Origin: Stylophora pistillata
Lineage: Eukaryota
DNA: 64,000 nt
Direction: 5' to 3'
NCBI RefSeq assembly: GCF_002571385.2
Contig: NW_019217822.1
Span: 286,398-350,397 of the forward strand
Notes under the pieces: generated by a model
What the model was told of the DNA's origin: nothing
Databases searched by the model: none
What the model saw: the letters and a program-made list of their open reading frames with translations, nothing else
Position numbers and translations under genes: made by a program
Part shown: piece after piece, positions 11,791 to 58,940 of the stretch
How the letters are laid out: each line of letters starts with the position of its first letter
Numbering within the stretch: position 1 is the stretch's first letter

Positions 11791-14700
11791 CTAGGTGTTT
11801 TCGTCCCCGTCTTTCATGTACTTCTCTTGAATTGCTGCTGTCCTATAAGATTGAACACAGCCAAAACGTTATTTCATTTGGTTAATGACGAATCTGTAAA
11901 GACAGATGGGTAACTAAGGGTTCCCACATCTGTAACCCTGGGGGTGTGCAGCTTCCCTGGGGGTGTGCAGCTTCCCTGGGGATGTGCAGCTTGCCTGGGA
12001 GTGTGCAGCTTCCCTGGGGGTGTGCAGCTTCCCTGGGGGCGTGCAGCTTCCCTGTGTGCGATGTCATAGGGTATACCCTTAGGTATACCTTGTTAAAGGG
12101 TATTAACTTTATCTTTAATTAAGATGTTCCAAATAAACGTAACTGATGTTATTGAATTTTTTTTTACAAAAAACTTTTTCAGTAAAGGAAATTGTCACAA
12201 AAGAAGCATTAAAGTTTTCAAATTGGAGAAATTCACGTGACTTAGTCAAACAAAGACAAGATTAATTGAGATATTTATAGGGCCACATGTATTTAAACAC
12301 CAAGTGTAAAAGGTCTTGACACAAACAATGACCTTGAATTTGCCCCAAAAAGGAAAGTGGAAGACCCAGCTACCAGTCTCAAACCTAATAAAACAAATGA
12401 AGTAATTTGAAGGAATAGATAAAGAAGAAACAAATAACAACTTGTACAAATTACATTTGACATTGCTCAGGTGAATTACCTAAAAAATTCAAAATCTGTT
12501 CCTACAGCAGAAGACATCAGCTGACTGAAGTTCCCTCGGTCATCCTCCAGTTCACCAAAAGCATAACCGTTAGCCTGATCAATAGATTTGGTCACCTGAT
12601 GCATACTCTCTTTTGACTATTAAAACAGAAATGAGAAATATGTTTAATCCACTGATTTCCTAACCTTCAGCATAAAAAAGTAAAAAAAGAACAAATTACG
12701 TTTGAATGTGCCTAAGATTTTGCAATTGAATGAACGATTGTCAAGAATAATCTGAGATTGCAGCGATTACACTTAGCAGTACTCAGTAATTGGTCAATAA
12801 TACACATGCCACCTTTTTGACCAATCAGATACATCAAAAAAGCAAAACAAGACTTAATTTGACACACTTTCCCCTGCCACTTAATGTGGGATTGCTTTAT
12901 GCTGCTTGTTCTACAAGATTACTTTGCACAAAGAGATCAAATGACAACAAAAACAAACCTTCAAGTATATGACTGGTTTATTTCCACAAGTATTTCAACA
13001 ATCACCTGTATATCTAGTGTTTTAAAAGACACCAGGCCATAATCCTCAACTAAACCCACTAATGCTTCATTCAGCTTTTTGTACTTTTGAGTAAATGGAT
13101 CATCCTTGATGTGATCCAGGAGAAAATTCAGATCCAAAACATCTGTGTAAAAGTCTAAATTGAATGCTAAAAAGAAATAAAAATAATTGAAGTCAACAGT
13201 AAAATTCCAGAAAAAATCTCTAGCTTATTTCATTTCCAATGGATTCTTTCTTTACTCCCTTGTTAAAGATGAAACATAATAACTAAAAGTAACAAAACCA
13301 AGGACAATTGATACATTGGTCCATTTTTCTGGTAATGACATTTTACACCTCACCCCAAATTAAAACAGAAAAATCAAAGCCAGATCAATCTGAGTGTTTA
13401 CAGCATTTAACTCCCTTTTCCTATGCCCTCACTACGTTCGTCTGCAGGAAAAATATTTTCCTTCTCCAGAACGCTGATTCATACAAATAGACACAAACTA
13501 TAAGGCAAGCAGAGTGAGAGCACTTGCCTGCCACGCTGATGTATACTGAGAGCTATACTTCTAATCATTTAAAACTTTGTCTAAAATCCCATTCAAATGT
13601 ATTTTAATCAATAACTACAGGTCTTACTGGCCAACAGTGGCCTATAACTGCCACTGCTTTACAATGGCTTTCGTATTTTGAATTCTCTTGGACTGGATAC
13701 TAATCACAGGTCTCCCCTCCTTCCCCCTGACAGGTTGGCAGTGGTACCCATCTATACTCCTGAGCAGAGAGATGCACAGAGGGAGTAAGGTGTCTTGCCC
13801 AACAAAAGACCACAGAATGACCAACATTTCATGTATCACATAAAAATTCAATCACCTAGTTTTCCATAGTGTTCTACCAGATCAATCTTGGACAGGACAT
13901 TCACATGAGGAAGCTCAACATGAATCATGGTCGACAAGGATGTAAGAAGAACAGAAATAAACTTTGTTGGATCGCTACAATGATGTGAATCAACAAGATG
14001 GACTGCAGCCAGCTGTGGAATAATAAATATGAAGTATTCAATGCAAATCACTTAAAAATGATTAGCTGTCGATTCATGTAAGTTCTGAAGATCCCCAGTT
14101 ACTCAAACAAGGAGGAACACTTACAGTGTAAGCATCAAACTGCATAATTATCTAATTTGAAAATAAAAAGAGCTCAGAAAAATGACAGAACTTGAGGAGA
14201 AGTCATGCAATGCAAAGGCAATTTCGCCCTGGGAAATATATGGTAAAAAAGGAAAAATTGCACGTGCATCTGCCATACTCTGCAGATAGGGGTGGAGTAG
14301 AGGGAGGAGAGGGGATCTTGGGACACAAGTTCTTCTTCTTAAATAAGACAAATAATTAATATGGCCCCCCTTTGCAAGACTAATAAATGTAGATGTAGAA
14401 TATGACGATAAAAGATTTCTAGCTTACGACCTAAATGTTCCTAATTTATCTAAATTGAGCGCTTCTGCCTTACTAGGCTTCTGGTTGGGCGCCTAAGTAG
14501 AACAGCATGTGGAAAAAGAAAACCCTTAAAAATCACTTACTCTGAAGTCCCACTTTTCAAGCTGCCTGACTACATTTCTCACAGATGTATGATGAGTGTA
14601 CAATTCAACTTGGCCTGGGCAGTCGAACAAGAAGTAATATCCTTTAAGATCTTTCAGCTTTCTCTCCAGCCAGTCAAGATTTTTTTCGAGATATTCGATG

Positions 14701-16592: not shown

Positions 16593-19500
16593 TTACTCAA
16601 AATTAAAGTTCGATTTGCGTCGTCCACCACCATTACGAAGATCCCAGATCCTGGGAGAGAGATTTCCGTTCCCTCTCAAAGATGATGATCCAACATTACC
16701 GAGATCTAAAAAAAAACAAACAAATGTAATTCTATTACACCGACTTCTCCTATTCCCACTTCACGTGGTGCATTCTATGCGGGTGTTGTACTCGGATGGG
16801 AGGTGTAGCCGTAAGGGGAGAAGCACCCCCCTAACCACAAAATGTAATACGGAAACTTACGATGAAAAATTAAGTTAGGTGTGCCCCACCCCCACCAGAA
16901 ACCAGTAAGACTTTAGAGCAGGACCTCTTACCTAACCCCCCAACTAATCCCTTCCCTACCCCCTGCCCGTTCCTTCTTCCTCCTCCCCGTTCGCTGCCTC
17001 TTGCACATCATTACAGTTCACAAACCTATTGACAGGGTGTTGGGAACGAACGACGTGGGTCGTCGTTTCTTAGCTTGCCCACGAGCCACTTGCCGAGCAC
17101 GTGACCCAAATCCAAGACACTGTAGAGTTTCTGTGATAAAACGCTGGGCAGGAGAACAGCAGAGCATGACAAGAAGCTTAGCGTCACCACCTGACAAGAG
17201 CAAATGAGCATGCGTTAGTGAATGTACGTTAGAGAATGAGTCTTCGAGGGACTGGACCGGACAAATTGCGAAATCCCACCCCAGGTGGCTGTAGAACTAC
17301 TGAAGCAGTTACAAAATTGTATCAAACATTGCATTCATATTGGGCTCAGGTTCCTTGAGCAAGAAATTCAGGTGAGGGGCCAATGCCCAACGAAAGGAAA
17401 AAAAGAGTGCACTGACAAAAAAGGAGTGAGCAATATTCATCACCATAAGCCATGCAATCATCTATTAGAGAAGAAAAAATAAAGTTGTCAAACTGGGCCT
17501 CTGAAGGAGAGTAGAAGCTCTCAATCAATCAATCAATCAATCAATCAATACTTTGTTTACCCACGTAGCGTCAAGGAGCTCAGTAAAGTTCTTTACGGGA
17601 ATTTCGAAAGTATTTAAATTGAATGCTCTACCTTGGACTGCCTGTACAAGTGAAGAGTGGACGTTTCAGTGAGTCACAGATTAGGATTAACAGCGTCAGG
17701 TGAATAACTATTGCTGATTACAACATAAAACAAGCCTACTCACCTATAGTATCCTGTAACATGTGAGTGAGTCTGGTGTTACGGTAGGGTATGTGAGAAC
17801 GATGCTCTGACAGCGCCCCTAACACATCGGCCAAGGCACTCAAACTGTTATAACAAACATCAAATATTTCAACGCGAGTTAACTTTGACATTAACTTTGA
17901 TCGAGATCATGTAGGCATGGGTTGTACATTAATTTATTCTCAGTGTTCTTCCTGAAATGCTTTCCTCAGACTGGGTAGAGACAGTCCCGTCCTTTTGATT
18001 AAATTGTGGGAGAGGAAAAGGGTTTGGCTTCAGGATTTTGGAGGGAATCATACAATGCACAGAACTACGCAAATGGCGAAGGAAAAAACTCGAAGGTAAG
18101 GGAAACCGCGAGCTTGTATTTCAAATCATACCACTTTGCTACTTCAACAGATAATATTGTTTAAATAATCTCACCAATTTTCATACCCTTGAGGCGGGTA
18201 AGCTGAAAAATTGCAAGCAATAAATTTCGGGTTATGGTTTTCAGACCAAGAACAAGTAACTTGCAAAACAACACTTCAATTTATTGTATAAACAACGTAG
18301 AGTTAAGAACGCAGCGTTTTGATTGGCAACTGATGAATGAGCGATCTGGGTCAAAAAAGCATAAAATGCAGGTGTCTATGGGACTTAAAGTCAGCACTAT
18401 CGAGCGATAATTGTCAGTGCAAACTGACAAGGACTTGATGCCCCAGTTACCTTTTGTTGATGTGCGAAGTTTCTCGTAAGGCTACACCGGTTACCCCAGA
18501 CATTCCTGAAAGCAAATTTAAAAATTGAAAAAAAAAAAAAGTCATAAGGGATAAGAACACAATAACGACTGTTGATGTTTTTGTCTTCCTATGATTGAGA
18601 AAAATACCATGAAAATAATTTCAACCCTGATTCTTCCCTCCTCTTACCGACACATTCACTTCCGGCCAAGTCGACGAGCTGAAGCTTGGTTTTCACACTC
18701 TGGCTTCCGTTAGTTGAGGAATTAGTGTTCCGGGTTGGAGAAGGAGATCTGGAACGAGCAGCGGCAGCGGTGCCAGGTGCTGGAGACCTGGAGAGAAAAA
18801 TTTAATCTAGCCGTGAGCTACGCATTACAGAAAGAAAGTCTCTAATGGCAAACGTAAGTTATTTTTGCTTTTTTTTTCTGTTGCGGAAAAAAATTGTTGT
18901 GTTAAGTTAAGCATTTTGAGTTAAAATATAAGCATTTGATACAGTTTATTTACAAGATCCACTCAGAGATGCTTTTATTCTTTCAAAAAGTTTTTGCAAT
19001 TAAGTGTAACATTTGTATACGCATGTAACTACCTCGAACGCCTTGCAGAAGCAGCTTTACTTTTCGGCGCAGGAGACTGGGACCTATTGCTGTTCCCAGC
19101 TGATGGCTGGGGCAGAGTTCGTCGTGATCTTGTAGGAGTGCCTGGGGGCGAAGGCGCCGCATCACTCGACGAGGAGGACGTACTTGGTTTTGTCTGAGTG
19201 ACTGTGTAAATAGTCAACTGTACTATTAAATGGGAACGGCTGGAATGAGCATGAACCATTGTGGCGTCCTCGTGTCTCCGTTGCATACCGTAGTAGACAA
19301 CCGCCATTACCTCCTGTACAGTCCTCACGGGTCTGAAGGAAGAAATTCGGACGTTGGTATCAAGACTAAAAAACCCATTCGTAATGAGTTCGAATCTTAA
19401 GGATGTTAACCTATTCTAAATGGCAAACGCTCGAAACGTCAGCTTTTGTAATCGTTACGGTGGCCAATTTACCATTTCAACTTTGTTGTTATATCCAAAT

Positions 19501-22500
19501 TATTTAGAGAAAGAAAAATCAGTTAGCAGGGGCTCCAAAAAACTTAGTCTGCTCTTCGAAATTTCGCTTCTAGAATATTTTCGCGAAAGGGGGTAGCCAC
19601 AAATCTTCACTACTATGAAGTTTCGTTTCTTCAGCTGAGTTTTTATGAACCCAGTACTTTCGCAAGTCCACACCATTCTGTTGAATTTCGAGGAAACCAG
19701 GCACAAGATTCGTCAGCATTAGTACAGTGTTTCGTACGTTAGTGAGTAAAAAGCACTGTAGTTAAATGTAAACGTAAGAATACTAAGCCTCTTTTACCTG
19801 GTTACAAGAGATGGAATCTCGGTTGCTCCTTCACTACTCGTGACAATATCAAGCTGTTAAAAAGAATACGAAAAGATTATCGTTTGGAAGACATGAATCT
19901 TCAGTGAGGTCATGCTACTTTGAGCTATTTTTCGCCACCGGCAAAACCATTTCCACCATCAAGAGGCAACATATTATCAGTTCTTCAAGAGAGGAACACA
20001 AAAGAGGAGCAATAATGAACAGTAAGGAACAAGGATGGCGAAGGATGGAGAAGATTGAAACGGATCGCTAATAGAGAGATTTAGCAACGCGTTTACGTGC
20101 CCTTTCACGTGTCACGTAAACTGAAATAGCGTGAACCTTGCTGCTTTGGCTTCGCGTGAGCTCACGTCATGGTGTATTTGAAGGCGCCCTTGTACGACTG
20201 ACAAGGAATAGTTTTGGCGCCCTTTTTCCGGCAACTAACTTCTTCTAGGTGAGAGAAAAAGTGAAGAAAATCTTACGTACACGGAAAACGCTGGGTAAGG
20301 TAGAAAAACACGAGAGAGGCAGTAACTAAACAGAACTGAAGGAACAGCAAAATAATGACGATCTTGAAAAATACGGGCTTCAAAATTTCTCAAAGACGCC
20401 GCGACGCACCGTGACATTCTGTCCAGTTAATGGGAATTATGGAAAGGGTGAAAAGAAACTCATGAAAATAGACACCAAACTTAACGGAATTACTCAACGA
20501 TAAAACATCTTCAGAAATACATTAATAAAGTTTATGATCACGTTGGAACTTACCCTGGAAGCATTTTTTCCCGCCAGAAGATCGCGAACTTCATTATTGT
20601 AAATCTCGCATACAGACATTTCCAACGAGAAGCTCTCTTCAGGATTTTCTCGTTCAGAGATGAGTCTAAAAATTCCACAAAGAGAAATGTTTGTAAATTT
20701 GGGAACAGTTTCTTCCTATTGAGGGATACAGCCTGTACAAATTGAAGAGTCTGCCAATGAACATATGTCAGATTCTAAAGATTCCTTTTGTTCGCCATTT
20801 GGAACTCTACTACTTACTTGAACATTTCCTTTGCTGATCGTGGAATAATCCCTTCGTCCTTATTCAGGGACTCTGAATCAATCTCCATGTCCAAGTCGTG
20901 ACTTCCCATCATGGTGTGAGTTTTACCAGAACCTGTTTGACCATATGCCATGATACACACATTGTACCTATCAAACAGACATTTCATTTGTTTTGTTTAT
21001 AACAGGTGTTACTATTTTAAAATACCTAAAATATATATTCACTGTTCTGCAACAGGCAGAGACAATTCAGAAAATGCCAGAGCATTTAAAAAGGAATTAG
21101 GACAAACTGTCAATGGTCACGCAAGGTAATAAACTTGCCCGTCTAACAGAGACGTCAAGCAAAGTAATAAACTTACCCGTCTAACAGAGACGTCACGCAA
21201 GGTAATAAACTCACCCGTCTAACAGAGATGTCACGCAAGGTAATAAACTTGCCCGTCTAACAGAGACGTCACGCAAGGTAATAAACTTACCCGTCTAACA
21301 GAGACGTCACACAAGGTAATAAACTTACCCGTCTAACAGAGACGTCACGCAAGGTAATAAACTTACCCGTCTAACAAAGACGTCACGCAAGTTAATAAAC
21401 TTACCCGTCTAACAGAGACGTCACGCAAGGTAATAAACTTACCCGTCTAACAGAGACGTCACGCAAGGTAATAAACTTACCCGTCTAACAGAGACGTCAG
21501 CAGAGGTTTCACGTCATCAAATAGCGACTTCTGGTCAGTGTCAGGTCCATAAACTCTTTCAAACTCAAACTCTTTCTTCTGCATCTGGCCACCAACAGGC
21601 TTAGCGGGGCGCACAATAAGTTTGTCCTCATCTTGAAGTTCTACAACTCTTTCAGAAGGAGTTCCTGCCACACCGAGCGACTCTTCATCACCAGGGGAGT
21701 CCAGGCGACTGATTAAGGGACGCAGTCGGCAGTGCACCCTAATATTGCCTCGCATTTCCTGCAAAGGAAATTTAAACAAAAAAAAACAAAACAGTTGACA
21801 CCAGCATAAAAAGAATAAAGAGCTGAGTAACCCACAAGGATTTGAACCCCACTCAGCTCCGGTTTTGCAGTCTGATGCCACTGAGTACCAACGAAACTAA
21901 CGAGAACTCTGGTGAGCCAAGCCATATACTTGGATCATGTATGACAATCAAGGTTCTTTGCATGCTGCTAGGGTCGGTGATTTTGACTGGAAGCATCCTG
22001 TACAGACACAGAGCAAGGAAGATGGCGTAATTTGAAAAGAATGCACCAGGACAGTCTATAGCATCTTGAGCTCTATCTCATCCCCTTATCACAAGTCATG
22101 TCATTGTGCATATCAATTAAATCTATCTATTGATAAGGAACCCCCCCCCCCAAAAAAAAAAGGGGAAAAAAGGTTCAGGAAGCATAGGAAGAAATTGGAA
22201 TGGCAAGCCAAAATTTCAAGGAAAAAGGCATTTCTTGGTGCAAAACTTAAACCACTGAGAAACTCAGCTGGTTGTGAAAAGTGCTGATAGTTTCAAAAGA
22301 AACTGTTTGGGGCTGCGTCGGTGGGAGTAACAAAATAATTTGGATATATTAACAAAGTTGAAGTGGTAATTTGGCCACCGTAACGATTACAAAAGCTGAC
22401 GTTTCGAGCATTAGCCCTTCGTCGGAGCGAATAGAGGAATTGCGGGTTGTGTGTGCTTTTAAAGGCAGAAAATGGAGCTACGTTATTGGTGGGAACATGG

Positions 22501-25500
22501 CAACGAGAAAAACAAGAATAAATTAGTGGAATGAAAAGCGTTTGTTGATCCCTGTGGGATTTAGACTGCTGGTTTGAAAGATTCATCTTTTGTAATCGTT
22601 ACGGTGGCCAATTTACCACTTCAACTTTGTTGATATATCCAAATTATTTGGTTGTGAAAAGTGTTTGAGAAGACCTTTCCACATGTAATATGTCCTGTTC
22701 ACAGTAGTTGCACAACATTTACTACTAACCACAAGAGTGTTGTGTAATGTCATTCTCCGAGACTTTTCTTGGATGTATCTTTGTCTGAACTCAACCATCT
22801 CCATTTCTGTCTTGAGAAGCTTATGTTGGAGGCCTGAATATGAAAGTTCAAACAAGGTCAATTTTTCACACACACAATAAAAATCAAGCAAAGGACATGT
22901 AAAGACAGGGCTATGTCAAGAAAATTGAGCACTCTACACTGACCTGCTGGGCATGTAATTATACTTGAAAAAAAATCCTTGAAATTTTTAGAGTCTAGGA
23001 TAACAATTAAGCTGCAAATAGTAATTAAATGTACACGGTACCTTCCATATTGGACATTTTCATTGAGCCAAACTGATCAGTTAGTTTTGCAGTCTTGTCC
23101 ATTTCTTGTGAAAGTAATTCTGGAAGACTCTTCACTTTCCTTTTCAGATCATGAAGCTCCAACTTCACTTCCTAAAAAAGAATGCCAATAGATATAAAAA
23201 TTTTCTTTGAAAAGTCATGTTGGAAAGACGATCAATTTGATTGTGACATTTCTTAACTGAATTGCCTTCTTTGCTGGAGTGTAAATTGGTACCAGCCAGC
23301 TATTAGGGAGACCTGACAAAAGGCTGAAATGAGGGCTTAGGGGCAGGACTCTGGGGAAGGGGGGGTGGGGTTACTTGCCCACATTGGACTAAAATCCAAA
23401 CACACAGGAAGAACAATTTTAGGAAATCTCTTTACTGCCCACCATCTGACAATTCTTGATGTTGGCCATAATCCCTTCATAGATTTTTTTTAAAATTCTC
23501 ATCAACTTATTGCTTGATATGAGGGTCTACATAGGGTTAACCAATAGCTGTAAAATAGTAAATAAAAATTACTGTTAGCCATAAAAATTGAACAATTTTA
23601 ACCATTGGGCTTAAATTTTGACAAATTTTTAACTGTTAGGCATAAAATATAATCAACGGTACCATAATTTTTTTCAGTCTAAGTCAGTCATTTTGAAAGT
23701 GTCAACAAAATAGACTGTTATGTCTTGTCTTGTCTCACGCTAATGGCTTATGTGTTTATGACTGTTACACTTTTTATTCTGACTGGTACCCAAAGGAAAG
23801 AAACTTTGCTCAGGCTCCACAGTCATATTCTGCAAACCAGAAGTGTTGCAAGAGATGCATTGACAGACAGCTGTCTATTTTTAGGATAGTTGCTTTCTTC
23901 TTTCAGTGTGCTCATGATAATGGTTTGAAAGGAATAGAAGTTAGTTCGTATCAAGCTGCAGGAAAGAGGCCAATCCAAAGTAAGATGTGAGGACATAAAT
24001 TGGAAAGGATCAAGCACTGCTGCATGTCATCATTTAAAAAAATGTTTTATAAATTTTCTCAGTCTGAACTACCAAACCAAGAAGTTGGGTATGGGGTCAT
24101 TTGATGTGAAACCATACTACCTTGCAAAAGTCAGTGGGAAAACAGAAAACAATGCAATTTCAGCACAACAGCAACTCGATTTAGAATTACCCTTCTTGCT
24201 TCACTCTGATGGTGAAAGTGAGCTGAAGGATAAGTGGTCTAAGTAGTGACTTCAATGCTAAAATAGCCTAGATGTAGTTATTTTATATTTCTTATTTCAA
24301 CTCAACTGCGCGTGCATGCTACCAGGCAGTACACTAAGCCTACCAGTGTTCCCACTCCAGTGGAGGTCTTGGTTACTCGAAGAGTCATTAAATTCTCTTT
24401 GGTGGTTAAGCACATCCAGTGGGTAATGTATAGTTATTTCAAGAATATATTTGATTTCTTAAAGCTAGATGGATACTCTTCAACACTGATATGTCCAATT
24501 GGCTTAGCATTTTAATATGGTACAAAGTTCAAATTAAACAGAGAAACAGTAAGGTTTACTTCCTCTGATGCAAATTAATGTAGTGATGTGGCTGCTTTTT
24601 TGTTATTCACAATTCAAACATATACATCTATACATATATAATGATACTGTTCCTGAAGTAGTAAGTTATTGCACTTTGTATAGTTATGTATTGTTACTAC
24701 AGTGACTTTCTTTTTTTTTTTCTTCCTGGAATTGACCCAAGATGTAAAGAAACAGTCATAAATGTGTTTTAGATCAATGAAAATTAATCATTAACTTTTG
24801 AAAATCATCAAAATTAATTATTAAAATATTACTGTTCACAGTACCAAACAGAAATTAACCGATAGCTGTAAAATGACCTAAATGTTTTACCCTTAGCTGT
24901 AAAAGCCATCACCCATTGAGACCCTCTGATATTGTGTTGATATTGTAAGGAAAATGGGAGTTAATGGGAGTTTTGGGGTTAAATTGTTGCTTGACATGTG
25001 ACAGAAGGTGGGCTGACTTCTGGCAGGATGAACCAAGACTAATAAGCTGTCTTAAAGCTGCAATTATGTATTATTGATTTTGTAATTGTAATTTGTTAGT
25101 TTCAATACACAAGTGTGTGCTTACTATTTATCCACCACACGGTGGATAAATAGTAAGACAAATCATTCTGTAATACCTGTAGTTTATCATTGGAGATTCT
25201 GAGCGTTTGCAAAGAATTCTTCCTTAAGCTTTTCTCCTCATCAAACAAGCGCCTAAAATGAGTGGACTCATGTCGGCAAGAGCGCACTGACCCTTGACAC
25301 TGAAGAAAAACAAACGATTACATACAAAATACACATAAGGATGGCTACTAAGGTATAATAAAATTAAGACAGGTAATTTTTGCATAAAGTACAAAATATG
25401 AAAAGTAACAGAAGAACAAATGTCTCCTTGACTTGACTAGTAACTGAGTACACAACAGTAGGTCAGCTGGGGCTCAATTACATCAGACGAAGGCAACATA

Positions 25501-57048: not shown

Positions 57049-58940
57049 ACCACCAAAAATACAAGGATGTCAAATAAATCAGTAAATACAAAGATGATTT
57101 AAGGATCAGCTGCAGAATAGCATAGCTAACAAAGGAATGGCATTGCAAAATTATAGACAGTCTAGGCTTCCTTCATGAAACAGAACACCCTAAACATAAA
57201 AATTAGCCAAACGATAAACGGTCTAGTTGCCCATGTCAAGTTGGAACATGAAGTTGTGAAATGGACCAGCTAAATTGCGAATAGCCTAGCACTCATTTGC
57301 AATACAGTACACAAACGGAGTAGCGTTGCGTCAAATGACTCAGGGTAATATCGAGTAACACAGCGTACGCACAAACGGTGCAGCGTTGCATAAAATGGCT
57401 CAGCGTAATGTCGAATGGTACAGCGTACATACAAACAGGCTAGCTTTACATGAAAAGGCTCAGCATAATGTAGAATGGTACAGCGTACAAACAAATGGCG
57501 TAGCGTTGCATGAAATGGCTCAGCGTTATGTCGAATGGTACAGCATACATACAAACAGCGTAGCGTTGCGTGAAATGGCTCAGCGTAATGTCAAATGGTA
57601 CAGCATACACACAAATGGTGTAGCGTTGCGTGAAATGGCTCAGCGTAGAATGGTACAGCGTACATTCAAACAGTGTAGCGTTGCGTGAAATGGCTCAGTG
57701 TAATGTCGAATAGTACAGCATACACACAAATGTTGTAGCGTTACGTCGAATAGCTTTGCAGAACATCAGACACTCTAGCTGAACATTAAATTGCTTAGCA
57801 ATACATGAAATATTCCGATGTTGTGGCCAATCGTCGAGCTTGCTTGTGGCGTGACGTGAAGGCTATCTCGCGGAAACCACCAAAAATACAAACCGCAAAT
57901 GGAACAACGATCTCCTGGGGGGCATGACGTCATCGAATGTGAAGACTGGCGCGAAAGCATGACATCGGTGTGGTCGCTATATTTAAGTCTTCACTTCGTC
58001 TAGCCCTAAAGCAGAGGTAATTCGGTAAGTTTCTCCTCTTTGTTTTTCCCTGCCGATATTGCATTTATTCGTTGTCGGTTCATGAGAGCGTTAATTAAAA
58101 TAGCAACGAGACTGGATTCTACCACGGTTTGCCGGCCTCCAGGTTTACCATAGTTTGCACGCGTTGGTGAGCCTGAATGTTTACAGAATTAATTGACAAT
58201 TATTCGCCTCAAGCTCGTGAATATTGGTGAAAATTCCCCGAGACGAAGTCGAGAGGGAATTACAATTCACGTATATTCACGCAGTATCTCACTGTTACCA
58301 GAGATGTTCACTCCAACGCGTCAAGATGCAAATGACTCAATTTTTGTTTCACGACCATGATGCAACGCAATCAGAGTGCGCACACCGCCTGCATTCGACA
58401 TTACGCGGAGCCATTTCACACAACGCTACAATGTTTGTATGCACGCTGTACCATTCTTCATTACGCTGAGCCATTTCACGCAACGCTACACCATTTGTGT
58501 GTACGCTTTACCATTTGACTTTACGCTGAGCCATTTCACGCAACGCTACGCAGTTTGTATGTACGCTGTACCATTCGACATTACGCTGAGCCATTTCACG
58601 CAACGCTACACCGTTTGTGCGTACGCTGTGCTACTCGATATTACCCTGAGTCATTTGACGCAACGCTACACCGTTTGTGTACTGTATTGCAAATGAGTGC
58701 TAGGCTATTCGCAATTTAGCTGGTCCATTCACAATTTCATGTTCCAACTTTACATAGGCAACTAGATCGTTTATCAGTTGGCTAAACCATTTATGTTTAG
58801 GGTGTTCTATTTCATGAAGGAAACCTAGACTGTCTATAATTTTGCCATGCCATTCCTTTATTAGCTACGCTATCCTGCAGCTGATCCTTAAATCATCTTT
58901 ATATTTACTGATCTACTGACATCCTTGTATTTTTGGTGGT
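57049..58940. mobile_element. Foldback-type element: long inverted arms with internal 60-bp tandem arrays
   Basis: ACCACCAAAAATACAAGGATGTC (57049) is the reverse complement of the end at 58940; ~250 bp unique arm plus 60-bp repeats (about 7 copies 57300-57750; about 5 inverted copies 58390-58690); no clear TSD. Confidence 0.85.

What the first reader, a model, noticed from the sequence alone, without database searches (positions are those of the whole stretch)
21117..21499. Minisatellite that multiplies a splice donor ten times in KIF25
Seen: the 38-bp unit is the last 19 nt of exon 6 plus the first 19 nt of intron 6, filling ~70% of the 513-nt intron. Besides the true donor (21481) there are nine copies with near-identical exonic context: six GTAAGT, one GTGAGT and two GCAAGT (including the copy nearest the acceptor). 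Read-through gives GGG TAA at once, so any downstream donor truncates the protein before the P-loop. Inference: a copy-number-tunable decoy array that could set KIF25 dose through NMD, or a natural test of first-donor selection.
Basis: partly seen in the sequence, partly recalled or inferred. Interest (0 to 1): 0.7.

Follow-up and report, generated by a model that had tools for sequence, protein, structure and literature searches.

The report
Splice-donor minisatellite in coral KIF25
In a coral kinesin gene (KIF25), the end of exon 6 with its splice signal is copied ten times in a row into the next intron, but the few spliced RNA reads seen use only the first signal, so this is likely a tolerated repeat of a kind already known from human and lancelet genes.

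Summary
Observation confirmed: a 38-bp unit (19 exon + 19 intron bases) x10, ten donors (7 GTAAGT, 1 GTGAGT, 2 GCAAGT), filling 70% of intron 6 of an intact 15-exon coral KIF25. A second sample's DNA holds it at multi-copy depth, so it is not an assembly artefact. The architecture is known: human F7 intron 7 (37 bp x5-9; minigenes already done), CBS, 6-16 and amphioxus 'mirages'. This scan noted it before on other DNA (83 notes, at least 30 genomes). Three more cases sit at coding exon ends in this genome (PAN2-like, urocanase, MMP-like). All 6 reads in listed intron-6 joints use the first donor; no decoy joint is listed, but depth is low and NMD could hide decoy products. The immediate stop is generic (5 of 5 phase-2 introns of this gene). 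The array is absent from 7 of 7 more distant coral orthologous introns. Some unspliced intron-6 RNA appears in 3 of 4 raw runs, but this intron also has the gene's weakest acceptor. Best reading: a recent slippage-born repeat, tolerated by first-donor choice. A copy-number dosage switch is unsupported, not excluded.

The parts
16596..26301 (-). KIF25 (kinesin-14 family) gene, 15 exons, start codon to last coding exon
   Evidence: Exon chain open without internal stop; tblastn of P0123/P0121; Pfam Kinesin and Microtub_bd on exons 6-7; homologues named KIF25
21481..21758 (-). Exon 6 (278 nt, ends in phase 2 in the Gly codon before the P-loop exon)
21120..21499 (-). Ten 38-bp units; unit 1 = last 19 nt of exon 6 + first 19 nt of intron 6
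21475..21483 (-). Authentic donor (CGG|GTAAGT, first intron base 21480), the one used in all listed junction reads
   Evidence: Joint 'skips 513': X21 3 reads, X24 3 reads; X8 contig 8
21285..21445 (-). Pseudo-donors 2-6 (GTAAGT at 21442, 21404, 21366, 21328, 21290), -3..+6 identical to the true donor
21133..21255 (-). Pseudo-donors 7-10 (GCAAGT 21252, GTGAGT 21214, GTAAGT 21176, GCAAGT 21138); this end holds 6 of the 9 substitutions
   Evidence: last two units the same in sample X5
21116..21119 (-). TGAC at the right edge, repeating the TGAC that opens unit 1 in the exon (21499-21496): likely slippage seed
   Evidence: Sequence; role inferred
20968..21119 (-). Unique 3' part of intron 6 with the most pyrimidine-poor acceptor of the gene (9 of 20; others 11-16) and a 6-nt length polymorphism beside the AG
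   Evidence: insertion at 20968 in X5 and X8
20818..20967 (-). Exon 7 (150 nt) with the P-loop

Best explanation
A 38-bp stretch spanning the exon 6 donor of a coral KIF25 gene is repeated ten times, the spliced RNA seen uses the first donor, and the array is likely a recent, tolerated by-product of DNA slippage rather than a regulatory device. Steps: (1) inferred: a first duplication by slipped mispairing between two TGAC words 38 bp apart, then expansion by slippage or unequal exchange; (2) inferred from comparison: it arose after the split from the more distant corals sampled; (3) shown at low depth: mature mRNA joins exon 6 to exon 7 at the first donor and encodes full-length kinesin; (4) inferred from human F7: the first donor wins because exon definition or 5'-to-3' choice commits it, though the copies would work if it were lost; (5) inferred: any rare slip to a later donor makes a stop before the P-loop and would be cleared by NMD, which lowers the cost of the array.
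For: First donor in 6 of 6 reads of listed intron-6 joints, two studies; X8 contig 8 runs unbroken from exon 6 through the shared 19 nt into exon 7; none of 134 fetched proteins ends at the exon-6 'DG', and full-length cluster members read through it. Same intron position without array in 7 of 7 genomic coral loci at 80-90% protein identity. Same architecture at three other coding exon ends in this genome among 23 donor-word arrays examined. Substitutions are not enriched in the donor core (3 of 9, P=0.36; GT 2 of 9, P=0.08). Predicted folding buries all ten donors alike, so structure does not pick one. Precedent: F7 minigenes and amphioxus mirages.
Against: Only 6 junction reads; joints under 3 reads are not listed; NMD could hide decoy products. 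The donors are stronger than F7's: by that paper's own increments about CV 92 (my inference), at the edge of its non-competing range, and with two strong sites HeLa data favour the intron-proximal one beyond about 30-45 nt (PMC3413131). Human 6-16 and CBS arrays leak to the next two donors (as cited in PMC1557585). Intron-6 depth is above zero in 3 of 4 raw runs while intron 4, 7 and 8 bins are zero. No Pocilloporidae relative could be read, so the age is loosely bounded.
Confidence: 0.75

Rival explanations
1. The array slows removal of intron 6: several U1 particles bound 38 nt apart would compete, leaving more unspliced RNA and slightly less mRNA, in proportion to copy number.
For: Intron-6 to exon depth 0.15, 0, 0.57, 0.11 in X21-X24 against zero in intron 4, 7 and 8 bins; about 8 read-equivalents in 363 nt against 3 in 726 control nt (P 0.02-0.11, depending on assumed fragment counts). 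In X24 coverage runs past the last donor; X8 has an unspliced 3'-end contig at depth 7 against 11-14 for spliced ones; protein P0133 begins in the intron-6 3' end.
Against: A handful of fragments, possibly PCR copies; X21 also covers intron 5; X8 is only guessed to be RNA. Intron 6 has the weakest acceptor of the 14, which explains slow removal without the array. The alleles of the RNA samples are unknown.
Confidence: 0.13
2. One reading: later donors are used in proportion to copy number, the products are destroyed by NMD, and copy number sets KIF25 dose.
For: Six pseudo-donors match the true one at -3..+6; all later donors give a stop one codon on; repeat-word depth in X5 is 1.44 times what the window's allele predicts, hinting at other alleles; the intron-proximal rule (PMC3413131) and the leaky 6-16 and CBS arrays (as cited in PMC1557585).
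Against: No decoy joint listed; not conserved, 0 of 7; stop is generic, 5 of 5 phase-2 introns; F7 used only the first donor even where later ones kept the frame.
Confidence: 0.1
3. Assembly artefact: one copy in the real genome.
For: The assembly has 5513 contigs and N gaps elsewhere in the window.
Against: Units carry distinct substitutions; sample X5 shows the repeat cycle at 6-8 times flank depth and the same last two variant units; RNA reads lie inside the array with none fitting two places.
Confidence: 0.02

Closest known systems
Human F7 intron 7 37-bp VNTR (Borensztajn et al. 2006, PMC1557585; read: abstract, introduction, results sections 6 and 9, discussion, first part of references)
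   Same: First unit spans the exon-intron boundary; nearly the same period (37 vs 38 bp) and copy number (5-9 vs 10); identical pseudo-donors; only the first donor seen in mRNA.
   Different: Here 19 exonic nt per unit (F7: 4), a stronger donor (F7 CV 74), three variant donors at the far end, every later donor gives an immediate stop, and the host is a coral. No functional test here.
Amphioxus 'mirage' minisatellites (Adh3, globins BflGb6 and BflGb9; PMC3087553, passages read)
   Same: Tandem copies of an exon-intron boundary in a marine invertebrate, with splice signals in most units, reported not to disturb splicing; edge units diverge.
   Different: Length instability is shown there and only hinted at here; globin units are longer (150-160 bp).
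Human CBS intron 13 (31 bp), 6-16/IFI6 intron 2, LMNB2 (100 bp), PDGF intron 4 (81 bp) arrays (known only through the introduction and reference list of PMC1557585)
   Same: Donor-reiterating minisatellites.
   Different: CBS and 6-16 use two pseudo-donors as well; LMNB2 and PDGF only the first. Leak here is undetected at low depth.
Duplicated strong 5' splice sites in HeLa (Hodson et al. 2012, PMC3413131; passages and first part of discussion read)
   Same: Strong donors tens of bases apart competing for one acceptor.
   Different: There the intron-proximal site wins beyond about 30-45 nt; here the most upstream of ten is the one seen.

Membership tests
Exon-intron-spanning minisatellite (F7-type / 'mirage') | Tandem array whose first unit spans an authentic exon-intron boundary | tested here: met
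   junction reads at 21480
Exon-intron-spanning minisatellite (F7-type / 'mirage') | Splice signal reiterated in the units | tested here: met
   7 GTAAGT, 1 GTGAGT, 2 GCAAGT
Exon-intron-spanning minisatellite (F7-type / 'mirage') | Mature mRNA mainly uses the authentic site | tested here: met
   6 of 6 reads in listed intron-6 joints plus one contig; low depth, steady-state RNA only
Exon-intron-spanning minisatellite (F7-type / 'mirage') | Copy-number polymorphism (VNTR) | tested here: inconclusive
   X5 word depth 1.44 times the window allele's expectation; fits a longer allele or fewer internal variants; contig depth is a rough measure
Exon-intron-spanning minisatellite (F7-type / 'mirage') | Pseudo-donors become active when the first is lost (shown for F7) | not testable with these tools
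   needs minigenes
Regulated unproductive splicing (AS-NMD dosage switch) | Alternative site detectably used | tested here: inconclusive
   No decoy joint listed against 6 canonical reads; upper bound about 39%; no NMD-blocked RNA
Regulated unproductive splicing (AS-NMD dosage switch) | Alternative product carries a premature stop well upstream of later junctions | tested here: met
   but generic for 5 of 5 phase-2 introns of the gene
Regulated unproductive splicing (AS-NMD dosage switch) | Element conserved across related species | tested here: not met
   0 of 7 orthologous coral introns; close relatives not available
Regulated unproductive splicing (AS-NMD dosage switch) | mRNA level tracks the element (copy number) | not testable with these tools
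   needs genotyped colonies with RNA

The most novel reading that the evidence does not exclude
Ten near-consensus donors at 38-nt spacing, right at the distance where mammalian data switch from upstream to intron-proximal choice, make splicing of intron 6 copy-number dependent: longer alleles give more retained or decoy-spliced, NMD-cleared RNA and less KIF25, a natural dosage VNTR in a coral, with weakened donors at the acceptor-proximal end (also seen in the urocanase array) selected to limit the leak.
Probability: 0.15. Interest if true: 0.55.

Novelty: new member of a known kind. Interest (0 to 1): 0.2.

Why it matters
Mainly as one more case showing that donor-reiterating minisatellites reach corals and are tolerated there, with several per genome. 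Its one useful trait is that the donors are strong and 38 nt apart, where two mammalian rules (first-donor choice in F7, intron-proximal choice for strong duplicated sites) predict opposite outcomes; the few reads side with the first donor. If copy number changed KIF25 mRNA it would be a rare invertebrate splice-dosage VNTR, but nothing here shows that.

Tried and rejected
First lay (19700-23300) was swamped by a high-copy repeat in intron 5, so its joint table showed no splice joints; only its depth table was used. Exact search for the junction word in metagenome contigs found 0. RNA structure as the selector: all ten donors have predicted unpaired probability of 0.002 or less in three window settings; rejected as discriminator. 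Selection against GT in the copies: not significant. Truncated isoforms among homologues: 0 of 134 proteins end at the exon-6 boundary; the search favoured longer proteins, so this is weak. Donor-word arrays are not enriched over the reversed-pattern control for GGTAAGT (51 against 199 matches) and only somewhat for GGTGAGT (150 against 100); matches are clumped, so no enrichment is claimed. Of 23 arrays looked at (12 of 12 GGTAAGT loci with this one; 11 of 15 listed GGTGAGT contigs, 4 simple-repeat-like ones dropped, 50 matches unlisted), 19 had no protein match at the first donor; L047, L037, L049 and L034 look like exon ends but were not confirmed (98 of 118 flanking frames scanned). Paper searches found nothing; three look-ups were not held, so the 6-16 paper and a review on 5' splice-site choice were not read. 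PMC10078293 (passages) added nothing specific. No paper search held the word 'coral', so no claim is made that coral cases are absent from print. No supplements were read.

Full report
Observation. TRF gives 21116-21507, period 38, 10.3 copies, no indels. Ten units in register run from 21499 to 21120 on the minus strand with nine substitutions in all, six of them in the last four units. Unit 1 is the last 19 nt of exon 6 and the first 19 nt of intron 6. The ten donors are seven GTAAGT (with the true one), one GTGAGT and two GCAAGT, the last unit being GC. The intron is 513 nt and the array fills 361 nt of it.

Host gene. Fourteen exons from 26301 join into an open frame, and tblastn adds a fifteenth near 16705-16596. 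Exons 6 and 7 match Pfam Microtub_bd and Kinesin. Homologues are named KIF25 from cnidarians to mammals. The closest cluster has Pocillopora and Stylophora members, and P0123, named Stylophora pistillata KIF25, matches exons at up to 100%. Several runs that hold the stretch are labelled coral metagenome. The stretch occurs once in the own genome.

Real, perhaps variable. In contigs of run X5 (kind not on record; it covers introns, so it behaves as DNA) the consensus repeat cycle has depth 1089 and 1450 against 184 for exon 6, and the last two variant units, with the final GC donor, match the window. That is 5.9 and 7.9 times flank depth where the window's allele predicts 4.1 and 5.5, a factor of 1.44 in both. 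A longer allele or one with fewer internal variants would fit; contig depth is a rough guide only.

Which donor is used. Of 29 and 35 reads laid from raw RNA runs X21 and X24, the only joints listed are intron 7 (4 and 5 reads) and the full 513-nt skip from the first donor (3 and 3 reads). A contig of X8 runs unbroken from exon 6 into exon 7. No decoy joint is listed, but listing needs three reads, short overhangs cannot tell donors apart, and 0 of 6 allows up to about 39%. Every later donor gives a stop one codon on, so NMD could hide such products. That stop is not special: all five phase-2 introns of the gene do the same. None of 134 fetched proteins ends at the exon-6 boundary.

A result against the plain reading. 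Intron 6 shows some RNA depth in three of four raw runs (intron to exon 0.15, 0, 0.57, 0.11), while bins of introns 4, 7 and 8 are zero in all four and intron 5 is covered only in X21. In X24 coverage passes the last donor, X8 has an unspliced 3'-end contig at depth 7 against 11-14, and protein P0133 starts inside the intron's 3' end. This points to unspliced intron rather than decoy use. It rests on about eight read-equivalents (P 0.02-0.11, by assumed fragment counts). Intron 6 also has the most pyrimidine-poor acceptor of the gene (9 of 20; others 11-16) and a 6-nt indel beside its AG, so the array need not be the cause.

Conservation and frequency. Ten coral-type loci came from metagenome contigs at 80-90% identity; three are spliced cDNA with the same junction, seven are genomic with the same intron position and no array. 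The other 14 of 24 loci were distant kinesins or partial and were left out. No close relative was readable. In the own genome, three-donor patterns gave 12 GGTAAGT loci and at least 15 GGTGAGT contigs. Of 23 arrays examined, four start at a protein-matched exon end: this one, a PAN2-like exon (32 bp x3), a urocanase exon (32 bp x4, last full copy GC) and an exon with a peptidoglycan-binding domain that looks like a matrix metalloproteinase (32 bp x3; the MMP label is my recall). The arrangement recurs in unrelated genes, as expected of a mutational by-product.

Mechanism. Origin: the word TGAC opens unit 1 and closes the array, the usual seed for slipped-strand duplication (established knowledge; role inferred). 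Substitutions are not enriched in the donor core (3 of 9, P=0.36) or the GT (2 of 9, P=0.08). Each unit can form two short hairpins, one covering the donor, but all ten donors are predicted equally buried, so structure does not choose. Position does: in human F7, whose intron 7 has a 37-bp VNTR of the same design, minigenes showed the pseudo-donors functional but unused unless the upstream ones were inactivated, even when strengthened to CV 91 and even where they kept the frame; only perfect sites competed (PMC1557585). The coral donor is near CV 92 by that paper's increments (my inference), and for two strong sites HeLa data favour the intron-proximal one beyond about 30-45 nt (PMC3413131). 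A leak is therefore plausible, as in 6-16 and CBS (cited in PMC1557585), and NMD would mop it up.

Comparison and novelty. It meets the tested defining features of exon-intron-spanning minisatellites (F7-type; amphioxus 'mirages', PMC3087553); copy-number variation is only hinted at. It lacks conservation and detected use, which a regulated AS-NMD switch would show. Earlier notes of this scan report the same design in at least 30 genomes, some with hundreds of copies (unchecked AI notes); none of those shown is from a coral, and none resembles this sequence. The 'mirage' lead came from those notes and I checked the paper. Verdict: new member of a known kind, interest 0.2; the dosage reading stays open at about 0.15, and would rate about 0.55 if true.

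Noticed in passing
L038:3006-3104 (G000:C52): 32-bp unit x3 spanning the donor of a PAN2-like exon; copies 100% identical.
   Followed up: partly
L033:2947-3110 (G000:C280): 32-bp unit x4 spanning a urocanase exon donor; the fourth donor is GC and a fifth, decayed copy has lost the GT, a far-end decay like that in KIF25.
   Followed up: partly
L050 about 1980-2073, minus strand (G000:C66): 32-bp unit x3 starting at the donor of an exon with a peptidoglycan-binding domain, MMP-like.
   Followed up: partly
L047, L037, L049, L034, L039, L044: Further donor-word arrays (3 to about 29 copies) at or just after possible exon ends; no protein match at the first donor. L047 has a Cu/Zn SOD-like frame about 0.7 kb downstream.
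   Followed up: partly
window 20968: 6-nt insertion beside the intron-6 acceptor in X5 and X8; the longer allele resembles the acceptor of other corals, so the window's allele may be the derived deletion. An ATG just upstream is in frame with exon 7 in both alleles (P0133 starts there).
   Followed up: partly
window 22280-22650 (related copy near 19410-19480): High-copy repeat with inverted parts in intron 5; reads of the family reach depth 2000-4800 on both strands in four RNA runs.
   Followed up: no
window 11936-12054, 31096-31686, 57309-57746, 58392-58680: Other tandem repeats (19 bp x6; 296 bp x2 with an N at the join, possibly an assembly doubling; two related 60-bp arrays in opposite orientation).
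   Followed up: no
window 17018-17026: Exon 14 has a donor a few bases before an in-frame stop; read-through would give a shorter tail than the 15-exon form.
   Followed up: no
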